Shown here piece after piece: positions 6,671 to 25,522 of a DNA stretch of 64,000 nt (its first letter is position 1; every line of letters starts with the position of its first letter). The notes beneath the pieces were generated by a model. That model searched no databases and had not been told where the DNA came from. It was given only the letters and a program-made list of their open reading frames with translations. The translations under genes and the position numbers were made by a program. The stretch comes from Alphaproteobacteria bacterium (GTDB lineage Bacteria > Pseudomonadota > Alphaproteobacteria > Rs-D84), in assembly GCA_031549365.1 (NCBI GenBank), contig JAVBPX010000001.1:130417-194416 (forward strand), read 5' to 3'.

Positions 6671-8686
6671 TTATTGACCAAACTGCTTATTTTGCTGACT
6701 GGATTGGGTGGTCTTTTTGTTCAATTCATCTTGGATCGATGATAATTTCATAGACATATTTGCAATACATGTATTGGCCTGGTTTGCATCTTTTATTTCA
6801 CTCTCTGAACATCCACTGACGGCACCAACACCAGTTACCCTGTTTGTTGAATAACTGTTAATTGATGACGCTAATTTTGCCAATTGTTTACGCGCCTTGT
6901 CCGACACAGTTTTACCAGAAATCAAACTCTTTGATTGCGACAATTGGTTGTTGAAACAATACATTCTGTCTGTATCAGTTGATTTGATTAAACAATCTTC
7001 GGATGAAACCGATCCCGATGCACCGGATGCGGACGCCGTTAAATCTTCGCCGGATTCAACCCTGGCAATTGCTTTTTGTAACTGCATTTGGAAACGCATG
7101 GTGGTTGATTCCAAATAATTATATTGGCGCTGCATTTCACGTGTTAATAATGTAACCTTGGACGCGATCAAACGATTTAATTCGGCCTTGGACGCTTCGT
7201 CCGTCACAAACTTCGTATCCAAATCTGCGGAATTATAAACTGCGGTTGAACATAATGCATAATACGGATTAACAGAACCTTTGATCCAACCTTTGGTTGG
7301 ATCGAGATCAGATTCCAAAATCCATTGAATTCCCGCTGTTGATATCTTTGCCAAATCCTTGTCCAATTCGATCTGTGTTGATTGACATTTATTCTTCGCC
7401 TTTTCTATGTCTGTTTCATTTCCAGCCTTGGCTGTGACGGTTCCATCAACTGCTAAAACTTTGCGTAATTTTGAAATCGACACACCCTGATCATTATCCA
7501 TAATACCTTCGAAAAAGCCGGAATTCATTGCCGTATCCGATACACATTTAACAACCGTTTTACCAGTTTTATCGATGCTGGACATAAATTTATCTTCTAC
7601 TTCTTGGTTATCTGTGAACAAACGCAACAACTGATCGGGCTTACCATCTTCTGTTTGATACAATCCCCAAACTGAACATGAATTGGTCAACATACGATAA
7701 ATATCATTAACATCAACACCCAATGCCTGGGCTGAAATCAATGCTTTGTAAACTTCGCGGCGCGCATTATCATACGGATCAAAAAATGCTTCGGCCTTTT
7801 GCTTGAAGGCAGCCACGCGTTTTGGCCCGGTACAATTGTCCCCGGTTGCGTTACAACCTGCGTATGTAAATGCATCCTGCATTGCTTTACGCACAGTTGC
7901 CAATGATGCATTAATATTATCCAATTTTGTTAACAATTCGCCGGACGGCGTTGCACGCGCCAATAAATCAGATTGCGATACGCTGGTTTGTTGTTGGGCG
8001 GCTTGAGCCGCCAATACTTCTTGGACCTGTGATGCGGCTTGTTGTTGAGCCATCTGAACTTGCTGATTCATTTGTTCCATTTGTTGCTGCATCATGGCCA
8101 TTTGCTGATTTGTTTGGGCGGATATTGCTGCGGCTTCGGCCTGTTGTGCTTTGCCTGCGGAATCGGCAGCCAATGCGGCGGCAACCGCACTTGAAATTGT
8201 TGGAAATTGTTTACAGCCAAACGCTATACGACCGGATAACGATGACATGCAACCATCGGCAATGCCTGTTGCAACCCCGGAATCCCCACAACCACCGGAT
8301 TTACATTTTGGGGACGCACAACGCAAAACCATTCCATAACAATTATTATAATTTACGCCGTCCGCTTCCAAACAGCCCCGAACCATATCGGTGCAACGTT
8401 GGGACCCAGCCTTGATAATACCGTTTGCAAATGAATTCATATCCAATGTTGCTGCACATTGATCAAAATATTGATCGCATTGGGATGATGCCGTACGTCC
8501 ACCGGATGTTCCCGATGTCCACATTGCATTGTTTGCCCCGCCAAAATTGCTGGACGCTGATGTTAAATTTCCACCGCCACCAAAAATCGCAGGCGCTGGT
8601 CCCGTTACCGGGTTCGCAGCATACAACAAAACCGGGCATAATAACATCCCACAAAAAACTGCCAATAAACCGGTTTTTTTAACCAT
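6671..8686 (-). CDS. Large secreted Cys-rich, Gly/Ser/Gln-rich hypothetical protein
   Basis: 671 aa. Signal peptide 'MVKKTGLLAVFCGMLLCPVLLYAANPV'. Gly/Ser-rich tract near the N-terminus. More than 25 Cys. Gln/Ala-rich coiled-coil-like tract 'MAMMQQQMEQMNQQVQMAQQQAASQVQEVLAAQAAQQQ'. I recognise no known catalytic motif. Confidence 0.6.
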   Translation of the reverse strand: MVKKTGLLAVFCGMLLCPVLLYAANPVTGPAPAIFGGGGNLTSASSNFGGANNAMWTSGTSGGRTASSQCDQYFDQCAATLDMNSFANGIIKAGSQRCTDMVRGCLEADGVNYNNCYGMVLRCASPKCKSGGCGDSGVATGIADGCMSSLSGRIAFGCKQFPTISSAVAAALAADSAGKAQQAEAAAISAQTNQQMAMMQQQMEQMNQQVQMAQQQAASQVQEVLAAQAAQQQTSVSQSDLLARATPSGELLTKLDNINASLATVRKAMQDAFTYAGCNATGDNCTGPKRVAAFKQKAEAFFDPYDNARREVYKALISAQALGVDVNDIYRMLTNSCSVWGLYQTEDGKPDQLLRLFTDNQEVEDKFMSSIDKTGKTVVKCVSDTAMNSGFFEGIMDNDQGVSISKLRKVLAVDGTVTAKAGNETDIEKAKNKCQSTQIELDKDLAKISTAGIQWILESDLDPTKGWIKGSVNPYYALCSTAVYNSADLDTKFVTDEASKAELNRLIASKVTLLTREMQRQYNYLESTTMRFQMQLQKAIARVESGEDLTASASGASGSVSSEDCLIKSTDTDRMYCFNNQLSQSKSLISGKTVSDKARKQLAKLASSINSYSTNRVTGVGAVSGCSESEIKDANQANTCIANMSMKLSSIQDELNKKTTQSSQQNKQFGQ

Positions 8687-13978: not shown

Positions 13979-15649
13979 CTATCCATTGATGATGTTGTTT
14001 AACCTGTCAATTACCCGGCTTTTACCCATAACTTGCATAATTGAATACAAGTCTGGGGTCATTTTACGTCCCGTTATTGCAACACGCAAAAAAGACGCGA
14101 CATCTGATACCGTCCCAATGTACTTATCGGGGGCAGCATCGTATTCCTTTTGATTTTTGGCAAAACCAAACCTTTCACCCAAATCGCGAACGCCGTTGAA
14201 CCAATCTGATGCGTCCAGCGCATCATCATAATTATCACGAAACTCGGATAAAACAGATATAATAACTTCATGGTTCAACCCATTGAATTCAGATTCAAAT
14301 TTTGATTTTGTTAATTTGAATAAATCGTCATAGAAATACGATACTTCATCTAAAGTCTGACGCCATGTAACAAAATCTTTTCTGATTCTTTTCGGATTAT
14401 CGCGTTCAATCGCCAACATATTTTTTAAATAATCCGGGGATTTGGCAATTCGTTCCGACCAATCAGCATCATATTTCATGGCAAATTCGTAAACGCTTGC
14501 AAACAAATCGTTAATCGACAATGTCGCAATCCATTCACGCGAAATGCTCTCTAATTTTTTCATATCAAATAATGCGCCTGATGGACTCATCTTTTTTAAA
14601 TTGATTGGATATGACCACATGTTAATTGATGAATTTTTTAATTTCGCATCTTCGTACCCAGATGCTGCAATATTAAACAAATATTCCAAAATTGCCTGAG
14701 GAGCAAAACCCTGCTCTAACATTAATGCAATTGATGCTTCGGGGTCGTGACGTTTTGAAATTTTACGGCGTGATTCGCCATCCATTTTATCAATTGTCCC
14801 CAAATGAGCATAAACAGGCACATCCCAACCCATCATTTGAAATAACGACACGTGCAAAGGCATTGATGACAACCATTCTCCGCCACGAACAACGTGCGTT
14901 GTGCGCATTAAATGATCATCAACCAAATGGGCAAAATGATATGTTGGCAAACCATCCGATTTTAAAATAACAATATCCGTGTCGTTTTGCGGAAATGCAA
15001 TTGATCCGCGGAGAGCGTCCTTACAATAAATTTTTTCATCATAATTACCGGTTGAATATAATCTAAAAATTGGTTTTTTCCCGGCGTCCAAACGCGTGAT
15101 AATTTCATCCTCGGCCAAATTACGATCACGGGCATATTCACCGTAAAAGCCGGGCCTCAACCCACTTTTCGTTTGAATGGATGTGATTTTTTCAATATCA
15201 TCTTCGGCCATAAAACATGGGTATGCCAAACCGCGCTCCAATAAATCAGCAACATATGTTTTATAAATTTCAACGCGATGACTTTGGGTATATGGGCCAT
15301 AATTACCGTGCTCGCCCCCACCCAGTTTTGGGCCCTCGTCAATCTTTAATCCGAATCTTGATTCAACCTCTAAAATAACATCTATTGAACCTGCGACCGA
15401 ACGTTTTGTGTCGGTATCTTCGATACGTATAAAAAATACACCATTTGATTGATGGGCCAAACGCTCGTTTATCATTAACATATTTAATGAGCCCAAATGC
15501 AAAAACCCGGTTGGGGATGGCGCGAAACGCGTAACCATTGCCCCGTCCAACAATTCTCGCTTTGGATACATTTCTTCCAATTGATTTGGGGTATATTTAA
15601 CATCCCCTAACAAACGTCCAATTAATGATTTTGATAGGCCTGATCTCAT
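13979..15649 (-). CDS. gltX: Glutamyl-tRNA synthetase
   Basis: Class I signature 'TRFAPSPTGFLHLGS' (HIGH-type) and 'KISKRH' (KMSKS-type). Start chosen at the ATG with an AGGA RBS ('MRSGLSKS...'). The canonical start may be further in at 'MVTRFAPSPTG' (15540). The ORF track extends to 15718. Confidence 0.85.
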   Translation of the reverse strand: MRSGLSKSLIGRLLGDVKYTPNQLEEMYPKRELLDGAMVTRFAPSPTGFLHLGSLNMLMINERLAHQSNGVFFIRIEDTDTKRSVAGSIDVILEVESRFGLKIDEGPKLGGGEHGNYGPYTQSHRVEIYKTYVADLLERGLAYPCFMAEDDIEKITSIQTKSGLRPGFYGEYARDRNLAEDEIITRLDAGKKPIFRLYSTGNYDEKIYCKDALRGSIAFPQNDTDIVILKSDGLPTYHFAHLVDDHLMRTTHVVRGGEWLSSMPLHVSLFQMMGWDVPVYAHLGTIDKMDGESRRKISKRHDPEASIALMLEQGFAPQAILEYLFNIAASGYEDAKLKNSSINMWSYPINLKKMSPSGALFDMKKLESISREWIATLSINDLFASVYEFAMKYDADWSERIAKSPDYLKNMLAIERDNPKRIRKDFVTWRQTLDEVSYFYDDLFKLTKSKFESEFNGLNHEVIISVLSEFRDNYDDALDASDWFNGVRDLGERFGFAKNQKEYDAAPDKYIGTVSDVASFLRVAITGRKMTPDLYSIMQVMGKSRVIDRLNNIING

Positions 15650-15800
15650 ACTTAAATCCTTTTTATAACGGCTTATATTATAATCCCCCTCCCCAATAAT
15701 GCAAGAGGATTTAACCATCCTGTTAATTCAAGCCCTTGAAATATTTTTATTGAACTGTTATAATTCGCCCAATACCAAAGGTATGCATTTGGGGAATAAC

Positions 15801-16466
15801 ATGGCAATAAAAAATATATTTTGGGATGTTGATGGGGTATTGGCGGATTTGAATTTCGCATACTTTAATTTTTTGAAAAACCATCCAAAATACCGGGAAA
15901 CATATAAAAATTTAAAGTGGGACGAGTTACCTAACGTTTTGCCAATCCAACCAAAATATGGGGCGTTGGAATTAAAAACACATCCAACGATGGGCGATGT
16001 TATGGATCATGATTTTTGTGCCGATTTAAACTTTTTCAATAACCGTCCATTGTATCCAGACGTTATCCAAACACTTAAAAAATTAAATGACTTGGGCTAT
16101 CACCAATTTACGATGTCGGCCACTTTTGATGTTGAAACCAAGAAAAAATTGTTAAATACCCTGCTTGCCGATGTAACTGATTTTTTAACAATTGAATGTG
16201 TACAACATGGAAAATTCATGCACGACACGGCCAAGCAAGACATGTTGCGCGAATGCTTTGAAAAATATGGTCTGAAACCAGACGAAACAATATTGGTTGA
16301 TGACCGGATTTATAACCTGGCCGCGGCTATTAATGTTGGGGCACATCCAATTCGCATGCGTTGCGAATTTACAACGGATGCCCCGGATGATTTGAAATGG
16401 GTTCCTGAAATACATAACGTTACTGAATTACATGATTATTTAATAAAAAATGGGGAAAAACTATGA
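15801..16466 (+). CDS. HAD-superfamily hydrolase (5'(3')-deoxyribonucleotidase-like)
   Basis: HAD motif I 'IFWDVDGVLADL' lies near the chosen ATG at 15801, which has a GGGGA RBS. The ORF track start at 15699 would overlap divergent gltX. Confidence 0.6.
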   Translation: MAIKNIFWDVDGVLADLNFAYFNFLKNHPKYRETYKNLKWDELPNVLPIQPKYGALELKTHPTMGDVMDHDFCADLNFFNNRPLYPDVIQTLKKLNDLGYHQFTMSATFDVETKKKLLNTLLADVTDFLTIECVQHGKFMHDTAKQDMLRECFEKYGLKPDETILVDDRIYNLAAAINVGAHPIRMRCEFTTDAPDDLKWVPEIHNVTELHDYLIKNGEKL

Positions 16467-17365: not shown

Positions 17366-17457
17366 GGAGAGGTGGCAGAGCCCGGTTGAATGCGCTCGAC
17401 TCGAAATCGAGTATACTGGCGACAGTATCGGGGGTTCGAATCCCCCCCTCTCCGCCA
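17366..17457 (+). tRNA. tRNA-Ser (anticodon CGA)
   Basis: Cloverleaf with acceptor GGAGAGG/CCTCTCC, long variable arm, anticodon stem ctcga/tcgag, loop 'ctCGAaa', T-loop GGTTCGAATCC. Discriminator G and CCA are encoded. Confidence 0.9.
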
Positions 17458-17512
17458 GACAAGATATTGATTTTACTACAATTTTTTACAAAATCGATAA
17501 CCCTTGAATTAT

Positions 17513-17535
17513 CCCCGGAATTCGGGGATTTTTTT
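17513..17535 (+). terminator. Rho-independent terminator downstream of tRNA-Ser
   Basis: 'ccccggaattcgggg' hairpin followed by a T7 run. Confidence 0.6.
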
Positions 17536-17672
17536 GATGCGATTTTAAGGTTATTGCAATGGTATGTGATTTAATATGTGAAAATACGGCGATATTTTGA
17601 TGTTTACATACAATGCCCGTTTTTGGCAGTGCACTGTTCATTGGTGCGAGGAAATTTTAAGGGAGTTTATTA

Positions 17673-17701
17673 TTGACTTTTTTGATGATTTGTGGTATAA
17701 T
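17673..17701 (+). promoter_or_regulatory. Consensus sigma70 promoter: -35 TTGACT, 17-bp spacer, extended -10 TGgTATAAT
   Basis: 'TTGACT tttttgatgatttgtgg TATAAT' at 17673-17701. Both hexamers match consensus perfectly with optimal spacing and a TG extension. Confidence 0.55.
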
Positions 17702-17714
17702 GCAGAGTATATTA

Positions 17715-17776
17715 GGACGGATTTTATCCGTCTTTTTTAATTTTAGTCCCGCTATTTTTGGCGGGGCTTTTTTTTA
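17715..17776 (+). terminator. Two tandem intrinsic-terminator hairpins in the leader (possible sRNA or attenuator)
   Basis: Hairpin 1 is 'gacgg attttat ccgtc' followed by T6. Hairpin 2 is 'gtcccgc tatttttg gcggggc' followed by T9. Both lie between the consensus promoter and the SD 'aagggag' of the ORF at 17795. Confidence 0.5.
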
Positions 17777-17794
17777 TATTTTTAAGGGAGTAAT

Positions 17795-18574
17795 ATGAAA
17801 AATAATTTTTTTAACGAACAATCTTTAAATTCTGATATTAAAACTCAGATTATCTTAGCTACATTTAAACTTTGGCTTCAAGACAATAAAAAGGAACAAA
17901 ATCTATCTTATATTGATCTATTTTCAGGGCCTGGCATATATGATGATGGAACATTATCTACACCGATATGTATTTTACAGGAAATTTGCAATAATAAGAG
18001 AATGGCACAGAGATTCAATGTGATCTTAAATGATTATAATGCAGAATTTATTGCAAAATTGCGTCGTATGATTTTGAATGTGAAAAATGCTAGGTTTATA
18101 AAAACTTTGGTTACTTCGATTGGTAATGCTGAAAGTTTTCAAAAGACCGTATCTAATAATGAACATATCTTCATGTTAATTGATCCTTGGGGATGGAAGG
18201 GTATAAATAGAAATTATATTAATAATATGTTATTAAATAAGGACTGTGATATTGCGGTGATGTTTAATTTTAATCAGTTTAATCGGTTTATGAATTTTGA
18301 TATCGCAGATGAATTGTTTAATGATTTGTTTGATAAAAAAACTTTGCACGAAATACGTAAATTTTGTAGCACAAATCCAAAATCGGAAAGAGAACAATTC
18401 GTGATAGATAAATTTGTGAAAATGGTTTGTAAAAATTGTGAAAATTGTAATTACACGCCATTTAAATTTAAGATGGAAAAATCGACGCGTACAAGCCATT
18501 ATATTATTTTTATAATTCGTGATAAAGATAGATTTCAAGCAACGAAAACTTTGTTAAATCAATACTTGGCTTGA
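17795..18574 (+). CDS. Hypothetical protein, candidate three-Cys-motif partner protein (TcmP-like) with a methyltransferase-like 'DLFSGPG' motif
   Basis: 259 aa. Good SD 'aagggag' 7 nt upstream. 'YIDLFSGPGIY' resembles SAM-MTase motif I and 'IDPWGWKG' is a possible motif-IV-like element. Directly upstream of a Gp37/Gp68 (DUF5131) gene. Confidence 0.5.
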   Translation: MKNNFFNEQSLNSDIKTQIILATFKLWLQDNKKEQNLSYIDLFSGPGIYDDGTLSTPICILQEICNNKRMAQRFNVILNDYNAEFIAKLRRMILNVKNARFIKTLVTSIGNAESFQKTVSNNEHIFMLIDPWGWKGINRNYINNMLLNKDCDIAVMFNFNQFNRFMNFDIADELFNDLFDKKTLHEIRKFCSTNPKSEREQFVIDKFVKMVCKNCENCNYTPFKFKMEKSTRTSHYIIFIIRDKDRFQATKTLLNQYLA

Positions 18575-18605
18575 AAAATAATATCGTTTCTGGCATAATG
18601 TGAAT

Positions 18606-19340
18606 ATGGCAGAAAAATCTAAACTTGAATGGACGGATGCAACGTGGAACCCAGTTGTTGGATGTACAAAGTACAGCGATGGGTGTATAAATTGTTATGC
18701 AAAACCAATTGCAGAACGTTTGTGTAGACAAGGAGTTTTTGGATACGAAAATGGTTTTAAAATGACATTGCGTCCAGAGCGTTTGGAAATTCCATTGCAT
18801 TGGAAAAAACCAAGATTAATATTTGTAGACTCCATGTGCGATTTATTTCACGATGATGTGCCATTAGAATATATTCAGAAAGTTTTTGCAATAATGAAGC
18901 GTGCAGATTGGCATGTTTATACCATATTAACAAAACGATCAAAGCGTTTGCGTGAATTGGCGTCAAACCTTGAATGGATGCCGCATGTTGTAATGGGTGT
19001 AACGATTGAATCCGATAAATATCGTGATAGGCTGGATGATTTGAAGGCTGTGCCTGCATATATGCGATATTTATCATTGGAGCCATTGTTGGGACCAATT
19101 AACCGATTGGATTTGGATGGAATTGATTGGGTTATTGCTGGTGGAGAATCCGGACCAAATGCACGGCAACTGGATACAAATTGGGTCAGAGAAATTCGCG
19201 ATTGGACATTGGAACAAAAAGCTGCGTTTTGGTTTAAACAGTATAGCGAGTATGGGGGACAGCATAAAGACCCTATTTTAGATGGGGAAAAATATAAGCA
19301 ATTTCCAGATTTTAAAACCGGAAAACCGAGTCTGTTTTAA
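18606..19340 (+). CDS. Phage Gp37/Gp68-family protein (DUF5131, three-Cys-motif protein)
   Basis: N-terminal 'KLEWTDATWNPVVGCTKYSDGCINCYA' matches the hallmark family start, a Cx6CxxC three-Cys motif right after 'WNP..GC'. The ATG at 18606 is preferred over the GTG at 18600. Confidence 0.6.
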   Translation: MAEKSKLEWTDATWNPVVGCTKYSDGCINCYAKPIAERLCRQGVFGYENGFKMTLRPERLEIPLHWKKPRLIFVDSMCDLFHDDVPLEYIQKVFAIMKRADWHVYTILTKRSKRLRELASNLEWMPHVVMGVTIESDKYRDRLDDLKAVPAYMRYLSLEPLLGPINRLDLDGIDWVIAGGESGPNARQLDTNWVREIRDWTLEQKAAFWFKQYSEYGGQHKDPILDGEKYKQFPDFKTGKPSLF

Positions 19341-19859
19341 TGGCAATGATTTATACAATCGGTTTTAGTGGAAAAACAGCGGACATTTTTACGGATGTTC
19401 TGGATGCTGTTGGTGTCAAAAAATTGATTGATATTCGTTTATGGCGGGCGTCACGATTTGTTCCATGGGCATCGGGTGCAAATTTGCAGAAACTTTTGGG
19501 TGACAAATATTGTTATATGCCGGAATTGACACCAACAAAATGAAGAAATTATTAAAAAGATAAATTATCGTCTGGGTACAAATGCGGATAAAATAAAACT
19601 CATTGAAAAAAACTATAATCGTCCGAATATTGAAGAATATTTGCAAATGTTTTCAAAAAACATGGATGGAGTAGATGAGACCAGAATTGCCCACTTTTAT
19701 TTGAAATATTGCGATTTCAAACATTCCAATGTACTGACGTGTTTAGAAGGACAAATACTTGATTTTCAGGTTGAACGCGTTATTACAGTAATGGTTATGC
19801 TTGTTACATATTTGAGTATGGCAAAATTAGAGCCCTATGTACATCCTGTCGGTATTTAA
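19340..19859 (+). pseudogene. DUF488 (YeaO-like) gene disrupted by a frameshift near 19525-19545
   Basis: ORF 19340-19543 encodes the DUF488 N-terminus ('MIYTIGFSGKT...LIDIRLWRASR...PELTPTK*'). The continuation is in another frame from about 19530 to 19859 ('EEIIKKINYRLG...LQMFSKNMDG...'). Confidence 0.5.
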
Positions 19860-19971: not shown

Positions 19972-21564
19972 ATGTCGGATAACAATGCCATTCATTGGGC
20001 GGATTTTATTGCAGAGCGAATAATTCGTGAAAAAGGCGATAAAGATTTATATACTTTGGCCAGCGGAATTACCCCGTCTGGGACAATTCATATTGGAAAA
20101 TTTCGCGAGATTATAACCACCGAATTGGTGTCCCGGGCGTTGGTTCGCATGGGGAAAAAGGTACGTTTTATTTATTCTTGGGATGATTATGATACTTTTC
20201 GCAAAGTGCCGGGCGATATGCCACAGCAAGAGATGTTAAAAGAATTATTGTATCAGCCGATTGTCGATATTCCAGATGTTTACGGAACAGAAAGTTCTTA
20301 TGCTCGGCATAACGAAGTGTCGTTGGAACGTATTGCTCCGGTATTGGGCATAACAAATATTGAATTTATTTATCAAAGTCGGATGTATCGTAGTGGCGAA
20401 TATAATGATTTGATTATAAAGGTTATGGATTCGCGAGATAAAATTCGTGATATTTTACAGACATCTAAAAGCCAGGGGATGGATGAAGAGTTTTATCCTA
20501 TTGCAACTTATTGCAGCAATTGCAATCGTGACCGAATTGTTTTTTCAAATTATAATACATCAGATAAAACAGTTGATTATAAGTGTAAGTTATGCAACCA
20601 CACGGAAAAGTTAAATTTACGCGATTCAAGGCGGCTGAAATTGCCTTGGCGAATTGATTGGCCAATGCGTTGGGCATTTGAAAATGTTGATTTTGAACCA
20701 GGTGGGACAGATCATTCTTCGGCTGGGGGCAGTTTTGATACCAGCAAAGTAATCGTTAGTGAGATTTTTGGAGGGGCGTCTCCGGTTTATGCAAAATATG
20801 CATTTGTATTGCCAAAGGGTGAAAGCAAAAAGATGTCTTCGTCAATTGGTAACGGGTTTTCTGTGGAAAGCGTTTTGCAGGTTTATGAACCAGAAATGAT
20901 ACGTTGGTTTTTTGCTTCGTATAAACCAGATGCGCAGTTCAGTATGGCTTTTGACATTGATGTTTTGAAGAATTACGAAGCATTTGACCGAATGGAACGC
21001 GTGGTTTATGGATTGGAAGATGTGAATGATGACAGGCGTGCAGTGCAGCGGCGTATTTATGAAATGTCTCAGATAAATTTTGATGGAAAGATTCCGGAAC
21101 AGATGCCTTTTCAGCCGAGTTTTAGGCACCTGTGTAATCAGTTGCAAATAAACGAATTTGATATCGAAAAAACCAGAGCATATTACGCCCACCAAATCAA
21201 AAATGACATCGATGAACAACGGTATCAAGAAAGGTCCAAATGCGCAGTATTTTGGATACAAAATTGTGCTTCGGATGATTTCAAACTTATATTGAATTCC
21301 GAAAAACGCAATGACATGACATTGTCGACAGATGAAAAAAAGTTCGTGAATGACTTGCACAAAATGTTGGAGATTGATTGGGACAATTTAGATGACGAAC
21401 GCGTCTTACAAAGTAAGGTCGGTGAATTAATTAAGGCCAACGGATTGGAAGTACTAAATGCGTATAAACTGTTATATCAGTTACTGGTCAATCGGGACCA
21501 AGGACCAAAGCTGGCCGGATTTATTTTGGGTATTGGCAAGGATAAGATTCTGAATTTGTTGTAA
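19972..21564 (+). CDS. lysK: Lysyl-tRNA synthetase, class I
   Basis: 530 aa. HIGH-type motif 'PSGTIHIGKFRE' and KMSKS-type motif 'KMSSSIGNG'. Architecture is typical of class I LysRS as found in alphaproteobacteria and archaea. Confidence 0.85.
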   Translation: MSDNNAIHWADFIAERIIREKGDKDLYTLASGITPSGTIHIGKFREIITTELVSRALVRMGKKVRFIYSWDDYDTFRKVPGDMPQQEMLKELLYQPIVDIPDVYGTESSYARHNEVSLERIAPVLGITNIEFIYQSRMYRSGEYNDLIIKVMDSRDKIRDILQTSKSQGMDEEFYPIATYCSNCNRDRIVFSNYNTSDKTVDYKCKLCNHTEKLNLRDSRRLKLPWRIDWPMRWAFENVDFEPGGTDHSSAGGSFDTSKVIVSEIFGGASPVYAKYAFVLPKGESKKMSSSIGNGFSVESVLQVYEPEMIRWFFASYKPDAQFSMAFDIDVLKNYEAFDRMERVVYGLEDVNDDRRAVQRRIYEMSQINFDGKIPEQMPFQPSFRHLCNQLQINEFDIEKTRAYYAHQIKNDIDEQRYQERSKCAVFWIQNCASDDFKLILNSEKRNDMTLSTDEKKFVNDLHKMLEIDWDNLDDERVLQSKVGELIKANGLEVLNAYKLLYQLLVNRDQGPKLAGFILGIGKDKILNLL

Positions 21565-21568
21565 TTCA

Positions 21569-22333
21569 TTACCTTTCTTGTATGTGCTTTCCCATAATGC
21601 ACTGGCGAGCGATGATTTTTTTGATGTTACTGCCGACAAGTTGCGATGTTAGAGGGCAATGATAGCTTTTTTTGAAATTTTCAGTGCATTGTTGTAAAGT
21701 TTCTGTAAAATTTGGTTTATAAAATTTTCCAATTTCTATACCCACAGGGGTGTTTTCAAGATTTCCCTTTGCTATTTCGTTATCAAAATTTTGTTTTGTA
21801 GTCGCAATTATATGTTTATTATCAGTGGTATGCAAGTGTGGTTCAGCCCTCTCCCATTGCGGTTGTGTAGATACAAATTTATCGGCCTCTTGCTTGTATG
21901 TTGAGTGTAATAGTGGACTATCTTTTAGTATTATTTTAGGTAAGTGCAACACCCATAAAATAATTCGAGCATATTGAAATTGCGATAATATGCAATCAGT
22001 TAATACGCATGAAGAACTCATAATTGACGGTAGAGAATCTTTAATGTTATTTGCAATGTATATGAGATCTGAAAGGCATTCTTTGTCTAGGCAAAATCCA
22101 AGGTGGTCAAAATCCTTTTGAAGGTCGTAATGCAGTTTCTTCATGTATTCAAGAAATTTTTTTTCTTGTTCGTGGTTGGATTTTTTTAGTAATATAAAAG
22201 TGTCAACATCTGAATTTGTTTTATCTTCACCTCGAGCAGTTGAGCCACATATAAATGAAAACTCTAGATTGTCTCCGAATATCTCTCGGGTATCTAAGTC
22301 CAATTGTTTTATCTGTTTTTTTGTTATTTTCAT
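21569..22333 (-). CDS. Pol-beta-superfamily nucleotidyltransferase domain protein (ANT/MNT-like), function unknown
   Basis: 254 aa. N-terminal NTase signature 'FICGSTARGEDKTNSDVDTFILL' (G[GS]x9-13Dx[DE]). The extreme C-terminus has an Rx6H element ('ARQCIMGKH') reminiscent of HEPN. Codon usage differs from core genes. Confidence 0.6.
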   Translation of the reverse strand: MKITKKQIKQLDLDTREIFGDNLEFSFICGSTARGEDKTNSDVDTFILLKKSNHEQEKKFLEYMKKLHYDLQKDFDHLGFCLDKECLSDLIYIANNIKDSLPSIMSSSCVLTDCILSQFQYARIILWVLHLPKIILKDSPLLHSTYKQEADKFVSTQPQWERAEPHLHTTDNKHIIATTKQNFDNEIAKGNLENTPVGIEIGKFYKPNFTETLQQCTENFKKSYHCPLTSQLVGSNIKKIIARQCIMGKHIQER

Positions 22334-22355: not shown

Positions 22356-23813
22356 TTATAAGTATCTTACGATTTCTCTCTGAGGTAGAATTGGTTGTGG
22401 AGTAAATATGCCTTTGTAATAGATTCCAGATGCATGCTTTCCTATACCGCCATATGGTTTGTATCCATGCTCGAAATTGTGTAGATGGTCATTCACAAGT
22501 ATAGAGTCCGGCATATGGATTTTTTCATCATAAAGTATGGCTATTGTTTCTTCTTTTAATTTTCCATAAACTGTCAAAAACATAGCTGATTCTTTATATT
22601 TTGTATTTTTGAAATAGTTTATAAGTTCATTTTCTGAATCATAAGGTTGTATAAAGAATATTGGACAGAACAATTCTTCGTAATTAGCTCCTTCAGAGAG
22701 ATCCTTTACTATTACCGTAGGATATATCATATTTTTTGAAGCGTCTATAAGACCTCCATAATAAATATTCTTCCGATTGTTATAAATTAGTTTTGCAGCA
22801 TTTAATGCGTATCCATCTTTTGTATTAGGCATTATTATCGTGGATTTTTCAGGATTTGAATTACAGTTTTCATGAATTTCTTTTAATTTATTTATTAAAA
22901 TTTCTTGAAAATCTGTTAAACAATCTCTTTTCACAAGTAATGCATTTGGGGCGGCACAGTCTTGTCCTTGGTTGTATGTTCCAAGCTCGATACATGCTTC
23001 GACGGCTTCTTTGATATTTGACCGAAGATTTATTATAACCGGGTTTTGTCCAGCACCACCAAAGAAACAATATAACTCTTTGTTATACGATCTTTTTACT
23101 TTCTTCATGTTTTCATATGTACCTGTAAATATAAATGCCTTTATTTCATTTCGTGTAATATTGAGAAAATCCTCTCTTCCTCCATAGAATATTTCTATAT
23201 TTGGCATACTTGATAAATTTAACAATTTATCTAGCTCTTTAAAAACGTCTTGAGAATCATTTGGATATCTAACATATACTTTCTTACAAATATACGATGG
23301 AACAAGAGCAAAACAAACAAAGGAATACAGCAATTGGTTTAAAGGCATAAATGACGCGATTGGTGCTTTCTCTTTTAAAAAGTATTCCTTATTTATGGTA
23401 AGATTTGTAAGAAGGTCTATTGATCTATCAATTTCATCACATATTGTATTATAGGTGGCATATGATGAAAGAGCTTTATAGATATCTTCTCTGCGCTGAT
23501 TTAATTGAAACGAAAAATTGAGCGCGTCTGTTAAAATTTTATCAAAGTCTAGATTATTTTCCACGTCTTTTTTAGAAATATTTGTTCTTTGTCCAAACCA
23601 AGAGCCAATTTCCTTTTTACTGAGTTTCTCTGTTTTTACTATAAGCCCTAAGTCATTTTTTTCATACTCCAGGCTGAGATTGTTAATATTGTGGAGTATA
23701 TTATCTTTAGCTTTTGTATCCATCTCATCAAATTTGAGGATAAAAGTCAGCCCATTTTTATCTTGTAAAATGGTTCCAATAGGCTGTTTCTTTTTCCTTA
23801 CTATGAAGTCCAT
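22356..23813 (-). CDS. Divergent aldehyde dehydrogenase superfamily protein (catalytic Cys kept, general-base Glu replaced)
   Basis: 485 aa. ALDH motifs present: 'FTGTYENMKKV' (NAD-binding F-T-G-S-T-like), 'NQGQDCAAPNALLVKRD' (Cys motif F-x-N-x-GQ-x-C), 'EELFCPI' (EEIFGPV-like). The 'ELGGKSP' position reads 'FFGGAGQNP', so the Glu is absent. Confidence 0.6.
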   Translation of the reverse strand: MDFIVRKKKQPIGTILQDKNGLTFILKFDEMDTKAKDNILHNINNLSLEYEKNDLGLIVKTEKLSKKEIGSWFGQRTNISKKDVENNLDFDKILTDALNFSFQLNQRREDIYKALSSYATYNTICDEIDRSIDLLTNLTINKEYFLKEKAPIASFMPLNQLLYSFVCFALVPSYICKKVYVRYPNDSQDVFKELDKLLNLSSMPNIEIFYGGREDFLNITRNEIKAFIFTGTYENMKKVKRSYNKELYCFFGGAGQNPVIINLRSNIKEAVEACIELGTYNQGQDCAAPNALLVKRDCLTDFQEILINKLKEIHENCNSNPEKSTIIMPNTKDGYALNAAKLIYNNRKNIYYGGLIDASKNMIYPTVIVKDLSEGANYEELFCPIFFIQPYDSENELINYFKNTKYKESAMFLTVYGKLKEETIAILYDEKIHMPDSILVNDHLHNFEHGYKPYGGIGKHASGIYYKGIFTPQPILPQREIVRYL

Positions 23814-23844: not shown

Positions 23845-25344
23845 TTATCTCAACTTTATTTTTTTTAACATGGGAAATGTTAAAACATCTCTGATATTAG
23901 ATGAGTTTGTTAACATCATGGCGAGGCGATCTGCACCTATTCCCATGCCTCCTGTAGGGGGCATACCGTATTCTAAAGCTGTAAGAAAGGCTTCATCCAT
24001 TTGCATTGCTTCAGGATCATCTGAAAGAGATGCTTGTTCTTCGAATTTTTTTCTTTGATCTATTGGATTTGATAATTCTGAGTAAGCTTCACCAAATTCA
24101 ATGCCGCCAACATAGAGCATAAATCTTTCAGAAAGACGTGGGTTTTGTCGATGTATTTTTGTCAGCGGAGATATATCATATGGAACATCCATTACGAAAG
24201 TTGGTTGAATAAGAGTTTTTTCGACTTTTTCTTCAAATATAGTTTCTACTACTTTACCCCAAGATTCAGTTCCCTTGAGTCGAATTTTGTGTTTTTGGGC
24301 AATGCTATGAATTTCCCTATCGCTCATGTTTATAAGATCTTCGTTCAGCGCTTCTGATGCTGCGTCTACCATTGGTAATCTTTTAAATGGTTTTTCAAGG
24401 TCTATTAAGGCATCTTTCCAAGTAATGTGGAGAGAGCTGTTGACAGCCATAGATGAATCTCGCAGCAATCTTTCTGCGAGAATCATCATGTCAAAATAGT
24501 CTTTATAAGAGCCATATATATCTAGCATTGTGAATTCTGGACTGTGGCGATTATCAATACCTTCATTGCGGAAATTTTTACCAATTTCAAACACTCGAGG
24601 AATGCCTCCAACAATGAGCCGCTTTAGTTCAAGTTCAGATGCTATCCTGAGATAAAAATCGTCTTTAAGAGAATTATAATGTGTAGTAAATGGAGCAGCA
24701 TTTGCACCGGCTTTTACTGGGTGAAGTATAGGTGTTTCTACCTCTATATATCCCTCATCGTGCATTACTTCGCGTATAGCATACATTGCTTTCGCCCTAT
24801 TGAGAACAACATCCCGAGAGTTTTTGTTTACTATAAGATCTACGGATTTATTGCGGTATCTTTCTTCGGAGTCTGTTAGACCGTGGTATTTTTCAGGAAG
24901 AATATTCAATGATTTTGACAGCATTGTTACTTCCAGAGGAGTAACAGAAACTGCTCCTCGCAAAGTTTTTTTAATTCCTCCCAAAACACCAATTATATCA
25001 CCAATGTCAAGATTTTTAAGCATGTTATTAAATTGTGTATCTGCTTTTGGATTTTCATTGCAAATTTGAATTTTTCCGGATTCATCTTCAACATCGATGA
25101 ACATTCCGGAATTTCGGATTGCCATAATTCTTCCTGCAATTTTTACAATGTCTTTTGTATCCGCTGTCTTTTCACCAGGTTGAAGGTGGCCAAATTCAGC
25201 TATTATATTACTGGCAAGATGCGTTGGTTTGTATATGTGTGGATATGCGTTTATTCCTTGAGATTCGATGTCTTTAAGTTTTTGAATCCTTATTTCTTTT
25301 AAAGAATTTATTGGTGTCTTATTATCTTTTTTTTGATTTTGCAT
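23845..25344 (-). CDS. lysS: Lysyl-tRNA synthetase, class II (full length, with N-terminal anticodon-binding OB fold)
   Basis: 499 aa. Class II motif 1 'RVFEIGKNFRNEG', motif 2 'HSPEFTMLDIY', motif 3 'GGMGIGADRLAMMLT'. N-terminal OB-fold region 'KIAGRIMAIRNSGMFIDVEDESGKIQICNE'. AGA/AGG/GGA/ACA-rich codon usage unlike neighbouring core genes. Confidence 0.85.
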   Translation of the reverse strand: MQNQKKDNKTPINSLKEIRIQKLKDIESQGINAYPHIYKPTHLASNIIAEFGHLQPGEKTADTKDIVKIAGRIMAIRNSGMFIDVEDESGKIQICNENPKADTQFNNMLKNLDIGDIIGVLGGIKKTLRGAVSVTPLEVTMLSKSLNILPEKYHGLTDSEERYRNKSVDLIVNKNSRDVVLNRAKAMYAIREVMHDEGYIEVETPILHPVKAGANAAPFTTHYNSLKDDFYLRIASELELKRLIVGGIPRVFEIGKNFRNEGIDNRHSPEFTMLDIYGSYKDYFDMMILAERLLRDSSMAVNSSLHITWKDALIDLEKPFKRLPMVDAASEALNEDLINMSDREIHSIAQKHKIRLKGTESWGKVVETIFEEKVEKTLIQPTFVMDVPYDISPLTKIHRQNPRLSERFMLYVGGIEFGEAYSELSNPIDQRKKFEEQASLSDDPEAMQMDEAFLTALEYGMPPTGGMGIGADRLAMMLTNSSNIRDVLTFPMLKKIKLR

Positions 25345-25366: not shown

Positions 25367-25439
25367 TGGGGGGCGGTCCGGATTTGAACCGTACCTCTGA
25401 GGGAAAACTCAGCGTTCTGCCTAATTATACTACCCGCCC
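25367..25439 (-). tRNA. Aberrant tRNA-like element (degenerate cloverleaf, 6-nt anticodon loop TTTTCC). Either a pseudo-tRNA or a non-canonical tRNA.
   Basis: Minus-strand sequence GGGCGGGTAGTATAATTAGGCAGAACGCTGAGTTTTCCCTCAGAGGTACGGTTCAAATCCGGACCGCCCCCCA. Canonical T-loop GGTTCAAATCC. Acceptor 6/7 pairs. 3' C-CCA encoded. Anticodon stem CTGAG/CTCAG with only 6 loop nt. D-stem and T-stem each carry a mismatch. Confidence 0.4.
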
Positions 25440-25522
25440 TATAATTGTGATGAAGTGATCCCATCAACTTATCATTGTTTATGTCAAAAGCAATTTAAAT
25501 GTCAATAATTATTTTTTGTTAT

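What the first reader, a model, noticed from the sequence alone, without database searches (positions are those of the whole stretch)
17795..19340. TcmP-like protein plus phage Gp37/Gp68 three-Cys-motif protein inserted directly downstream of tRNA-Ser
Seen in sequence:
- ORF 18606-19340 starts with the hallmark 'WNPVVGC...C..C' block of the Gp37/Gp68 (DUF5131) family.
- The preceding 259-aa ORF carries 'IDLFSGPGIY', which resembles SAM-methyltransferase motif I of DNA MTases.
- It also carries 'IDPWGWKG', a loose (D/N/S)PP(Y/F/W)-like motif IV.
- Both are very AT-rich and sit between tRNA-Ser and the native lysK.

Established knowledge, as far as I recall, is that Gp37/Gp68 three-Cys-motif proteins occur with a conserved partner protein (TIGR 'TcmP') in phages and genomic islands, with no assigned biochemical function. 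tRNA 3' ends are classic island integration sites.

Inference: a mobile two-gene module, possibly involved in DNA modification or defence.
Basis: partly seen in the sequence, partly recalled or inferred. Interest (0 to 1): 0.6.

Follow-up and report, generated by a model that had tools for sequence, protein, structure and literature searches.

The report
TcmP–radical SAM cassette beside tRNA-Ser
This is a real but already catalogued two-enzyme cassette of unknown function (a methyltransferase-like protein plus a radical-SAM enzyme resembling a DNA-repair lyase) that travels between bacteria and phages and probably modifies nucleic acid; here it sits next to a tRNA gene with its own conserved control region and a decayed third gene.

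Summary
ORF 17795-18574 is a TcmP protein (TIGR04474, 88.8 bits, cutoff 53). ORF 18606-19340 is a DUF5131/Gp37-Gp68 protein (PF07505, E 5e-83). PADLOC already lists the pair as the untested defence candidate PDC-M30.

New here:
- The TcmP model (pLDDT 88.7) has a class I SAM-methyltransferase fold closest to RlmJ. Motif I is intact and motif IV reads D-P-W-G.
- The DUF5131 model (pLDDT 92.5) is a radical-SAM barrel closest to spore photoproduct lyase. It has an invariant CX6CX2C and a GGE motif.
- The cassette has more than two genes. It carries a conserved promoter and a two-hairpin leader, shared by five independent loci (six sequences).
- It also carries a translationally coupled DUF488 gene that is now a pseudogene.
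- The pair recurs behind three different tRNA genes, in prophages and in defence islands.

No integrase or att repeat was found, and no relative with an empty site was available. Only TcmP is AT-rich. So the pair is mobile as a family, but insertion at this site is not shown.

The most likely function is SAM-dependent nucleic-acid modification, which is inferred and untested. Verdict: a new member of a known, uncharacterised kind, of moderate interest.

The parts
17366..17457 (+). tRNA-Ser(CGA). Upstream landmark; not part of the cassette.
   Evidence: ARAGORN; Rfam RF00005, 57.7 bits. An independent Logan contig (L108) ends exactly at 17457.
17502..17536 (+). Intrinsic-terminator-like hairpin plus T-run after the tRNA.
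   Evidence: Terminator scan. A similar hairpin followed by 'TTTTTTGATGC' follows tRNA-Ala in L231/L002. Similarity in this distal part is modest, z 2.7-3.8.
17673..17701 (+). Cassette promoter: TTGACT, 17 nt, TATAAT with an extended -10 TG.
   Evidence: 11 of 12 consensus matches. The -35 and the 'TTTGTGGTAtAAT' block are conserved in L002, L231, L086, L088 and L090, in different genomic contexts.
17714..17740 (+). Leader hairpin 1 plus T-run.
   Evidence: the whole leader folds at -30.3 kcal/mol, z -5.25. A hairpin at the same position has a different sequence in every homologous leader. RNAalifold recovers it, with 3 pairs changed on both sides.
17745..17776 (+). Leader hairpin 2 (GC-rich) plus a T8 run. 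The U-tract can pair with the Shine-Dalgarno AAGGGAG before the ATG.
   Evidence: The CCC...GGG core is invariant across six leaders.
17795..18574 (+). TcmP, short form (259 aa). Class I SAM-methyltransferase fold; lacks the C-terminal GMT-like wHTH of the usual ~375-aa form.
18606..19340 (+). DUF5131 / phage Gp37-Gp68 protein (244 aa). Radical-SAM-superfamily partial TIM barrel.
19340..19859 (+). DUF488 pseudogene. The N-part 19340-19543 (67 codons) overlaps the DUF5131 stop. There is a +1 frameshift at the A-run near 19540. The C-part 19548-19859 has lost the C-H-R motif.
   Evidence: PF04343, 1.3e-06 on the N-part. PDC-M45C, 1.8e-09. Three-frame translation. Alignment to the L088, L090 and L235 copies shows 'QVERV' where they have 'QCHR(R/S)'. 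The same split appears in an independent assembly.
19972..21564 (+). Class I lysyl-tRNA synthetase (lysK). Downstream flank; not part of the cassette.
   Evidence: TIGR00467, 478 bits. GC 39.1%, typical of the window.

Best explanation
The region 17673-19859 is a horizontally spread cassette of the TcmP/DUF5131 type (PADLOC candidate PDC-M30), lodged between tRNA-Ser and lysK in an uncultured Rickettsiales-like alphaproteobacterium.

Its parts, in order, are:
- its own near-consensus promoter;
- a leader of about 75 nt with two terminator-like hairpins;
- TcmP;
- DUF5131;
- a translationally coupled DUF488 gene that has decayed.

Proposed mechanism:
1. DUF5131 binds a [4Fe-4S] cluster through CX6CX2C and cleaves SAM to a 5'-deoxyadenosyl radical. 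The radical attacks a nucleobase or sugar in a nucleic acid, most likely DNA, as its nearest structural relative spore photoproduct lyase does.
2. TcmP is an RlmJ-like Rossmann protein with an intact SAM-binding motif I, an invariant acidic D80 and an altered motif IV (D-P-W-G). It binds SAM and the substrate. It either transfers a methyl or other SAM-derived group, or presents the target. In most family members a C-terminal wHTH adds DNA binding.
3. The product would be a covalent mark used in phage-host conflict, either protecting DNA or marking self.
4. The leader probably keeps expression low by premature termination, so the enzymes are made only on read-through.

What is shown: family identities, folds, conserved residues, gene linkage and fusion, purifying selection, contexts, and the leader architecture.
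What is inferred: cluster binding, SAM cleavage, the substrate, the product, the defence role, and attenuation.
For: - Identity.
- The two genes work together: DUF5131 lies immediately downstream of TcmP in 18 of 21 loci. They are fused in P0078, with DUF5131 at residues 4-238 of 549 aa. They are adjacent in cultured Gordonia phages and in Rhodococcus and Rhizobium plasmids.
- Both are functional: all invariant residues are retained. dN/dS is about 0.11 (TcmP) and 0.09 (DUF5131) for L002 against L231.
- Conflict context: GmrSD_N + HEPN and SRA-HNH neighbours; Wadjet-like genes and a zeta toxin; a type ISP R-M enzyme, a DEAD helicase and DUF262; next to the validated defence gene hna in S. meliloti; T7-like and P2-like prophage modules.
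- Mobility: different flanks in every lineage, and placement behind tRNA-Ser, tRNA-Ala and tRNA-Asn.
- Leader: conserved promoter and two hairpins in five independent loci (six sequences).
Against: - No experiment on any member was found. PDC-M30 is only a guilt-by-embedding prediction.
- The best structural relatives of TcmP are RNA methyltransferases, not DNA ones.
- TcmP does not hit the RlmJ Pfam model. hhalign to RlmJ gives only a 22-column motif I match at 6% probability.
- Motif IV lacks the catalytic P-Y, so methyl transfer to an exocyclic amine is doubtful.
- This clade lacks the wHTH.
- 174 of 180 DUF5131-bearing cultured-phage records have no TcmP, so DUF5131 does not need TcmP.
- No nuclease or other effector is in the cassette, which is odd for a defence system.
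- The hairpins could simply be stabilising 5' structures or a small RNA. Leader statistics are uneven: z ranges from -0.4 to -5.3, and there are only five independent examples.
Confidence: 0.5

Rival explanations
1. The pair makes an antiviral small molecule. Like viperin, DUF5131 would act on a free nucleotide, and TcmP would methylate or otherwise tailor it. The product would poison phage replication, and no polymer would be modified.
Confidence: 0.15
2. It is a DNA-repair module. DUF5131 would be a lyase that reverses a DNA lesion, as spore photoproduct lyase does, and TcmP and DUF488 would be accessory factors.
For: SPL is the top structural hit. One phage annotator already called a homologue 'spore photoproduct lyase' (H15). 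In actinophages DUF5131 sits among DNA-metabolism genes such as polymerase, exonuclease and AAA-ATPase.
Against: Identity to SPL is only 11%. The Cys motif is CX6CX2C, not the canonical CX3CX2C. An obligatory SAM-methyltransferase-fold partner, and fusion to it, has no parallel in SPL (own knowledge). Repeated embedding among restriction and toxin genes is not typical of repair genes.
Confidence: 0.1
3. It is an RNA (tRNA or rRNA) modification pair, possibly native. TcmP would be an RlmJ/Trm1-like RNA methyltransferase and DUF5131 an RNA-acting radical-SAM enzyme.
For: The top TcmP fold matches are the rRNA and tRNA methyltransferases RlmJ and Trm1. The locus lies among translation genes: tRNA-Ser, two LysRS genes and GluRS.
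Against: The distribution is patchy, with different flanks in every lineage, and includes phages and plasmids. None of 11 related genomes has the pair near lysK. TcmP has the lowest GC in the window. Housekeeping modification enzymes are not usually carried in prophage immunity regions.
Confidence: 0.12
4. The cassette is a decaying remnant in a reduced symbiont genome and is no longer functional here.
For: The coupled DUF488 gene is frameshifted and has lost its conserved motif. Expression must pass two terminator-like hairpins. No mobility gene remains.
Against: TcmP and DUF5131 are full length and retain every invariant residue. pN is far below pS against homologues. The promoter is near consensus. 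The same leader is conserved in loci where the genes are intact, so the hairpins are a feature and not damage.
Confidence: 0.08

Closest known systems
PADLOC phage-defence candidate PDC-M30 (TcmP TIGR04474 plus DUF5131 PF07505; also PDC-M41, whose B component is DUF5131)
   Same: Both components hit the models and are adjacent on one strand. The family sits in defence islands and prophages.
   Different: The window's TcmP is a short form without the GMT-like wHTH. The cassette also carries a conserved two-hairpin leader and a DUF488 pseudogene, which I did not find described. No anti-phage activity has been reported for PDC-M30.
Spore photoproduct lyase (radical-SAM DNA repair enzyme; PDB 4fhc)
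   Different: Identity is 11%. DUF5131 has CX6CX2C where SPL has CX3CX2C (the SPL motif is from my own knowledge). DUF5131 is about 100 residues shorter, works with a methyltransferase-fold partner, and is mobile.
RlmJ (23S rRNA m6A2030 methyltransferase, PF04378) and its Legionella homologue 2oo3
   Different: There is no Pfam hit, and hhalign gives 6% probability. Motif IV is D-P-W-G, not D-P-P-Y. TcmP has extra invariant residues (E200, S234, H235). It is always linked to a radical-SAM gene.
Radical SAM mobile pair protein A (TIGR04471)
   Same: DUF5131 matches it weakly (E 2.3e-19). It is likewise a radical-SAM protein named as part of a mobile gene pair.
   Different: The score of 69.7 bits is far below the cutoff of 355, so DUF5131 is not a member.
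tRNA-adjacent genomic or defence islands
   Same: The cassette lies 3' of a tRNA gene here and in other lineages. One gene has atypical GC.
   Different: There is no integrase and no direct repeat of the tRNA 3' end. The unit is only about 2.2 kb.

Membership tests
TcmP (NCBIfam TIGR04474) | HMM score above the curated cutoff | tested here: met
   88.8 bits against cutoff 53, E 5.3e-25, model positions 22-258 of 263.
TcmP (NCBIfam TIGR04474) | Encoded next to a three-Cys-motif (PF07505) protein | tested here: met
   DUF5131 starts 31 nt after the TcmP stop on the same strand. The same holds in 18 of 21 loci.
DUF5131 / phage Gp37-Gp68 (PF07505) | HMM score above the gathering cutoff, over the full model length | tested here: met
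   278.7 bits against 28.9, model positions 1-243 of 243.
DUF5131 / phage Gp37-Gp68 (PF07505) | Conserved N-terminal Cys triad | tested here: met
   C20, C27 and C30 are invariant in 54 sequences.
Radical SAM superfamily | Partial TIM-barrel fold with the Cys cluster at the N-terminus and a GGE-type SAM-binding motif | tested here: met
Radical SAM superfamily | Canonical CX3CX2C motif | tested here: not met
   The motif is CX6CX2C. Variant spacings are known in the superfamily (own knowledge), so this lowers but does not exclude membership.
Radical SAM superfamily | [4Fe-4S] binding and reductive cleavage of SAM | not testable with these tools
   Needs anaerobic biochemistry.
PADLOC PDC-M30 | Both component HMMs hit and the genes are adjacent | tested here: met
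   PDC-M30A 9.4e-15 and PDC-M30B 4.9e-92.
PADLOC PDC-M30 | Confers resistance to phage | not testable with these tools
   No report was found. PDCs are guilt-by-embedding predictions, and M30 was not among those tested.
Class I SAM-dependent methyltransferase | Rossmann-like seven-strand fold | tested here: met
Class I SAM-dependent methyltransferase | Gly-rich motif I and an acidic residue after strand 2 | tested here: met
   D41-L-F-x-G45-P-G47 and D80 are invariant in 63 sequences. D80 follows strand 74-79 of the model.
RlmJ family (PF04378) / amino-methyltransferases | Pfam HMM hit | tested here: not met
   No Pfam family at E up to 0.01. Authentic RlmJ hits PF04378 at 2e-127. hhalign probability is 6%.
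RlmJ family (PF04378) / amino-methyltransferases | Catalytic motif IV (D/N/S)-P-P-(Y/F/W) | tested here: not met
   TcmP has D130-P-W-G133. D and G are invariant, and P and W nearly so. RlmJ has D-P-P-Y.
tRNA-targeted integrative island | Lies at the 3' side of a tRNA gene | tested here: met
   337 bp after tRNA-Ser. Homologous cassettes lie 283-291 bp after tRNA-Ala(GGC) in L002 and L231, and behind tRNA-Asn in L090.
tRNA-targeted integrative island | Integrase or recombinase gene | tested here: not met
   None between kdsB and lysK, nor in the flanking ORFs.
tRNA-targeted integrative island | Direct repeat of the tRNA 3' end at the far boundary | tested here: not met
   No repeat family involves the tRNA. 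Best local alignments score 17-20, within the shuffle range (maximum 22-24), at all three tRNA-adjacent loci.
tRNA-targeted integrative island | Presence/absence polymorphism among close relatives | tested here: inconclusive
   The organism is on record from one sample only. The nearest genomes (LysK 68-72% identical) share no synteny. Logan assembly breaks at 17457 and 17619 are suggestive only.
DUF488 (PF04343) | HMM hit and an intact reading frame with the conserved C..E......CHR block | tested here: not met
   Only the N-terminal 67 codons hit (29.4 bits). The gene has a frameshift, and 'QVERV' replaces 'QCHR(R/S)'. It is a pseudogene.

The most novel reading that the evidence does not exclude
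TcmP, DUF5131 and DUF488 together form a widespread, uncharacterised nucleic-acid chemistry. In this reading a radical-SAM enzyme of the photoproduct-lyase lineage installs or processes a new DNA (or RNA) modification. It would do so with either of two alternative partners: the RlmJ-like TcmP or the Cys-His protein DUF488. In one alphaproteobacterial clade the cassette would be gated by a conserved double-terminator leader. The pattern seen here fits partner exchange or incompatibility. DUF488 is intact only where TcmP is absent (L235). It is independently inactivated four times where TcmP is present (window, L088 twice, L090).
Probability: 0.25. Interest if true: 0.75.

Novelty: new member of a known kind. 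Interest (0 to 1): 0.4.

Why it matters
The two families are large. More than 6,000 TcmP and more than 7,800 DUF5131 clusters were found, in searches capped at 8,000 candidates. They occur in bacteria, archaea, plasmids and phages, yet have no assigned activity.

A radical-SAM enzyme closest to a DNA lyase, tied to and sometimes fused with a methyltransferase-fold protein, is a plausible source of a new nucleic-acid modification or a new defence or counter-defence principle.

This window does not answer that question. The analysis does give testable handles:
- the residues to mutate;
- the likely substrate class;
- a conserved regulatory leader;
- DUF488 as a third player.

For the genome in hand, the finding marks a small acquired cassette in a variable, tRNA-flanked stretch of a termite-gut-type symbiont.

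Tried and rejected
1. **Empty-site test.** I scanned representative genomes with LysK. The 80 loci returned reached at most 72% identity, and none of the 11 closest shared kdsB, tRNA-Ser or the cassette, so the test was uninformative.
2. **Strain-level polymorphism.** Exact LysK, KdsB and TcmP proteins occur in only one sample, SRR23967709.
4. **att sites.** Nothing exceeded shuffled controls.
5. **Known RNA families in the leader.** Only sub-threshold terminator-like hits appeared (GcvB 27.6 bits against 42, and others). No SAM riboswitch was found. I rejected a riboswitch.
6. **Sequence-level link of TcmP to solved structures or to RlmJ.** None was found. The link is by fold only.
7. **DUF5131 and DUF488 against PDB by sequence.** Nothing significant.
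8. **Literature.** No paper characterises TcmP, DUF5131, PDC-M30, the GMT-like wHTH or the DUF488-N3 subclade.
9. **Programmed +1 frameshift in DUF488.** I considered it because the shift occurs at 'AAA TGA'. I rejected it because the downstream catalytic motif is also lost and the other copies carry plain nonsense codons.
10. **Genetic code 4.** I considered TGA read as Trp to explain the in-frame stops in L088 and L090. The codons are TAG and TAA, so I rejected it.
11. **Homology of the whole tRNA-to-TcmP spacer between tRNA-Ser and tRNA-Ala sites.** Upstream of the -35 it is only weakly supported (z 2.7-3.8), so I do not rely on it.
Full report

Yes. ORF 17795-18574 (259 aa) and ORF 18606-19340 (244 aa) are present on the + strand. 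The quoted motifs are there.

Family assignments:
- The downstream protein matches PF07505/DUF5131 end to end (E 5.3e-83).
- tRNA-Ser(CGA) is at 17366-17457.
- A class I lysyl-tRNA synthetase follows at 19972.

Three corrections:
- Only TcmP is AT-rich. It is 27.6% GC, the lowest of 41 long ORFs (mean 38.9%, sd 3.6). DUF5131 is 38.9%.
- The tRNA and TcmP are 337 bp apart, and that spacer is structured.
- A third gene was missed. A DUF488 ORF (PF04343) starts on the DUF5131 stop codon, is frameshifted about 200 nt in, and continues in the +1 frame to 19859. The same split is present in an independent Logan assembly.

**2. Organism and neighbourhood**

The exact proteins are on record from a single sample, SRR23967709. 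The closest LysK sequences (68-72% identity) come from termite-gut Rickettsiales and Alphaproteobacteria MAGs. The closest TcmP and DUF5131 sequences (58-83% identity) come from the same kind of MAGs.

None of the 11 nearest LysK loci has kdsB, tRNA-Ser, TcmP, DUF5131 or DUF488 nearby. So the pair is not conserved at this site, but there is also no syntenic 'empty site' to compare with.

**3. What the two proteins are**

TcmP:
- The family is large: 6,124 hits at E up to 1e-5 among a capped 8,000 candidates.
- Its usual form is about 375 aa with a C-terminal GMT-like wHTH (PF22560). The window protein belongs to a small short-form clade (256-288 aa) without that domain.
- An AlphaFold2 model built on 63 sequences is confident (pLDDT 88.7, pTM 0.89).
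- Invariant residues map to the expected places: D41-L-F-x-G-P-G47 (motif I), D80 after strand 2, and D130-P-W-G133 after strand 4.
- Set beside authentic RlmJ, three blocks are collinear: the N-terminal Lys (K16 against K18), 'YIDLFSGPGIY' against 'YLDTHAGAGRY', and 'MLIDPWG' against 'LILIDPPY'.
- The resemblance is at fold and motif level only. Pfam finds nothing, the PDB profile search finds nothing, and hhalign gives 6% probability.
- The catalytic P-Y of amino-methyltransferases is replaced by W-G. So I describe TcmP as working like a SAM-binding Rossmann enzyme, but I do not file it as an RlmJ-family or DPPY methyltransferase.

DUF5131:
- It is very well conserved: 7,818 hits at E up to 1e-10, and over 50% identity across phyla.
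- C20, C27 and C30 (CX6CX2C), 'LTKR', 'EPL' and G-E-x-G (within 'GGESG') are invariant.
- The model (pLDDT 92.5) is a radical-SAM partial TIM barrel.
- RadicalSAM.org independently lists DUF5131 as Megacluster-5-2 and spore photoproduct lyase as Megacluster-5-3 (PMC9477430).
- It also matches 'radical SAM mobile pair protein A' weakly, far below that family's cutoff.

**4. Do they work together?**

- In 21 loci carrying TcmP (5 from the alphaproteobacterial clade, 16 IMG/VR viral contigs), DUF5131 is immediately downstream in 18.
- In P0078 the two are fused, with DUF5131 at residues 4-238 of 549 aa.
- In cultured material the genes are adjacent but in varying order and orientation: Gordonia phage Jablanski, Rhodococcus pUSK13_1 and Rhizobium pC6.5b.
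- Both genes are under purifying selection where divergence is unsaturated. For L002 against L231, dN/dS is about 0.11 and 0.09.
- The dependence is not symmetrical. Of 180 cultured-phage records with DUF5131, only 6 have a TcmP relative.

**5. Context**

PADLOC models call the two proteins PDC-M30A and PDC-M30B; DUF5131 equally matches PDC-M41B. PDCs are 'guilt-by-embedding' predictions. PDC-M30 was not among the candidates tested in the one validation study I found, and other papers only list it.

The contexts I retrieved agree with a role in conflict:

| Locus | Neighbours |
|---|---|
| L090 | GmrSD_N + HEPN on one side, SRA-HNH on the other |
| Rhodococcus pUSK13_1 | zeta toxin and a Wadjet-like DUF3375/DUF4194/ATPase trio |
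| Rhizobium pC6.5b | type ISP R-M enzyme, DEAD helicase, DUF262 |
| S. meliloti | a TcmP gene (SMa2243) listed next to the validated defence gene hna (SMa2245) and up-regulated with it |
| L004, L229 | T7-like phage modules |
| L235 | P2-like tail module |
| Gordonia phage Jablanski | integrase, RelBE and immunity-repressor region |

**6. The cassette is more than two genes**

*(a) Leader.* Upstream of TcmP there are:
- a near-consensus promoter (TTGACT, 17 nt, TG-n-TATAAT; 17673-17701);
- two terminator-like hairpins, each with a T-run (17714-17734 and 17745-17768);
- the ribosome-binding site.

The same layout precedes TcmP in L002, L231, L086, L088 and L090, whose flanking genes all differ (L002 and L231 are orthologous). 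The -35 and extended -10 are conserved in sequence. The hairpins are conserved in position but not in sequence.

RNAalifold recovers both hairpins, with three pairs changed on both sides in hairpin 1. L231 differs from L002 by changes that create G-U pairs, which points to an RNA-level structure. The window leader folds much better than shuffles (z -5.25); the others range from -0.4 to -3.1. No Rfam family fits.

I read this as an attenuator-type leader belonging to the cassette. This is inference from five independent examples.

*(b) DUF488.* The gene is translationally coupled to DUF5131 in the window (TAATG). Related copies lie next to the pair in L088 (two copies) and L090, in other orientations. 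All four copies are inactivated, each differently:
- the window copy has a frameshift and has lost the 'QCHR' block;
- L088 has TGG changed to TAG;
- L090 has TAY changed to TAA;
- the second L088 copy is truncated.

In L235 an intact DUF488 (150 aa; PF04343 plus PF22751, 'Active DUF488-N3 subclade'; PDC-M45C at 3e-38) sits 8 nt upstream of DUF5131, where TcmP normally is, and TcmP is absent. So DUF488 is linked to DUF5131 and may be an alternative partner. With four loci this is a lead, not a result.

**7. Is it an insertion at the tRNA?**

Evidence for acquisition:
- TcmP's extreme GC.
- Different flanks in each lineage.
- Presence in phages and plasmids.
- Recurrence just 3' of tRNA genes: tRNA-Ser here, tRNA-Ala(GGC) in L002 and L231 (283-291 bp upstream of TcmP), and tRNA-Asn at the head of the L090 island.

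Evidence lacking:
- No integrase.
- No att-like repeat above shuffled controls at any of the three loci.
- No empty site.

An independent assembly breaks exactly at the tRNA 3' end (17457) and again at 17619. The first break is what a de Bruijn assembler does at a tRNA shared between genomes. The second is unexplained. Neither proves polymorphism.

The spacer similarity between the tRNA-Ser and tRNA-Ala sites is strong over the promoter and leader (z about 7) but weak upstream of them (z 2.7-3.8).

In the L002/L231 lineage the cassette is stably inherited at one site. So it is mobile on evolutionary time, not demonstrably so now.

**8. Mechanism**

The best-supported reading is a SAM-dependent two-enzyme system acting on nucleic acid. 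DUF5131 would generate a 5'-deoxyadenosyl radical, like its nearest relative SPL, which acts on DNA. TcmP would bind SAM and the polymer, with a wHTH in most members, to transfer a group or present the target.

Rivals are:
- viperin-like nucleotide-analogue synthesis;
- SPL-like repair;
- RNA modification;
- a dead remnant.

Each is weighed in its own section. My confidence is about 0.95 in the identities and folds and about 0.8 that the two proteins act together. It is about 0.35-0.4 that the substrate is DNA and the product a modification used in phage-host conflict.

**9. Novelty**

Both families are named. NCBI's pipeline annotates TcmP routinely, and the pair is in PADLOC. So this is a new member of a known, uncharacterised kind.

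The following appear not to be described in the literature I could search:
- the fold assignments;
- the short-form clade;
- the conserved leader;
- the DUF488 link.

They make the open question of what this pair does more testable.

Noticed in passing
window 25368-25440 (-): ARAGORN calls a 'tRNA-???' with an abnormal anticodon loop, and Rfam does not confirm it at gathering score. It is a tRNA-like fold (acceptor GGGCGGG/CCGCCCC, T-arm GGTTCAAATCC). It lies about 24 nt upstream of the class II lysS start, on the same strand. It may be a tRNA-mimic leader.
   Followed up: partly
window 19972-21564 (+) and 23845-25344 (-): The window encodes both a class I and a class II lysyl-tRNA synthetase, 2.3 kb apart. 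The class II gene and its neighbours have low GC (GC3 25-29%), so one of the two may be acquired.
   Followed up: no
window 21569-22333 (-): A 254-aa nucleotidyltransferase (NTP_transf_2/Polbeta) hits the PADLOC candidate PDC-S09 (9.5e-10) and weakly the MntA antitoxin model. It is next to a divergent aldehyde-dehydrogenase-like gene (22356-23813) with 31% GC.
   Followed up: no
window ~15500-16000: Cumulative GC skew reaches its minimum here, at the divergent gltX(-)/HAD(+) junction. This could be a replication-related strand switch.
   Followed up: no
window 17457 and 17619: The independent Logan assembly of the same sample breaks exactly at the tRNA-Ser 3' end and again 176 nt upstream of TcmP, leaving 161 nt unassembled. 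The second break has no repeat in the window to explain it.
   Followed up: partly
L102 3900-6504 and L106 4986-7590 (IMG/VR): TcmP is split into two HMM-matching pieces by an insert of about 1.1 kb, directly upstream of DUF5131. The insert could be an intron, an intein or a mobile element.
   Followed up: no
L002 against L231, TcmP and DUF5131 genes: The adjacent genes show discordant divergence: dS is 0.14 for TcmP and 0.97 for DUF5131. This suggests recombinational replacement of one gene within the cassette.
   Followed up: no
L235 7541-8741: An intact DUF488 (Pfam 'Active DUF488-N3 subclade') lies directly upstream of DUF5131 in place of TcmP, at the end of a P2-like tail module. An Abi_2 gene and an integrase are nearby.
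   Followed up: partly
L086 2566-2700: Two GC-rich repeats of about 60 nt ('TCCCGCCTTCC...CGCGG') lie upstream of the TcmP promoter. They are reminiscent of the palindromic repeat elements of Rickettsiales.
   Followed up: no
L233 6574-7866 / L234 4931-6169: A 412-430-aa protein with no Pfam or PADLOC hit occupies the TcmP position upstream of DUF5131. It may be a further, unrecognised partner family.
   Followed up: partly
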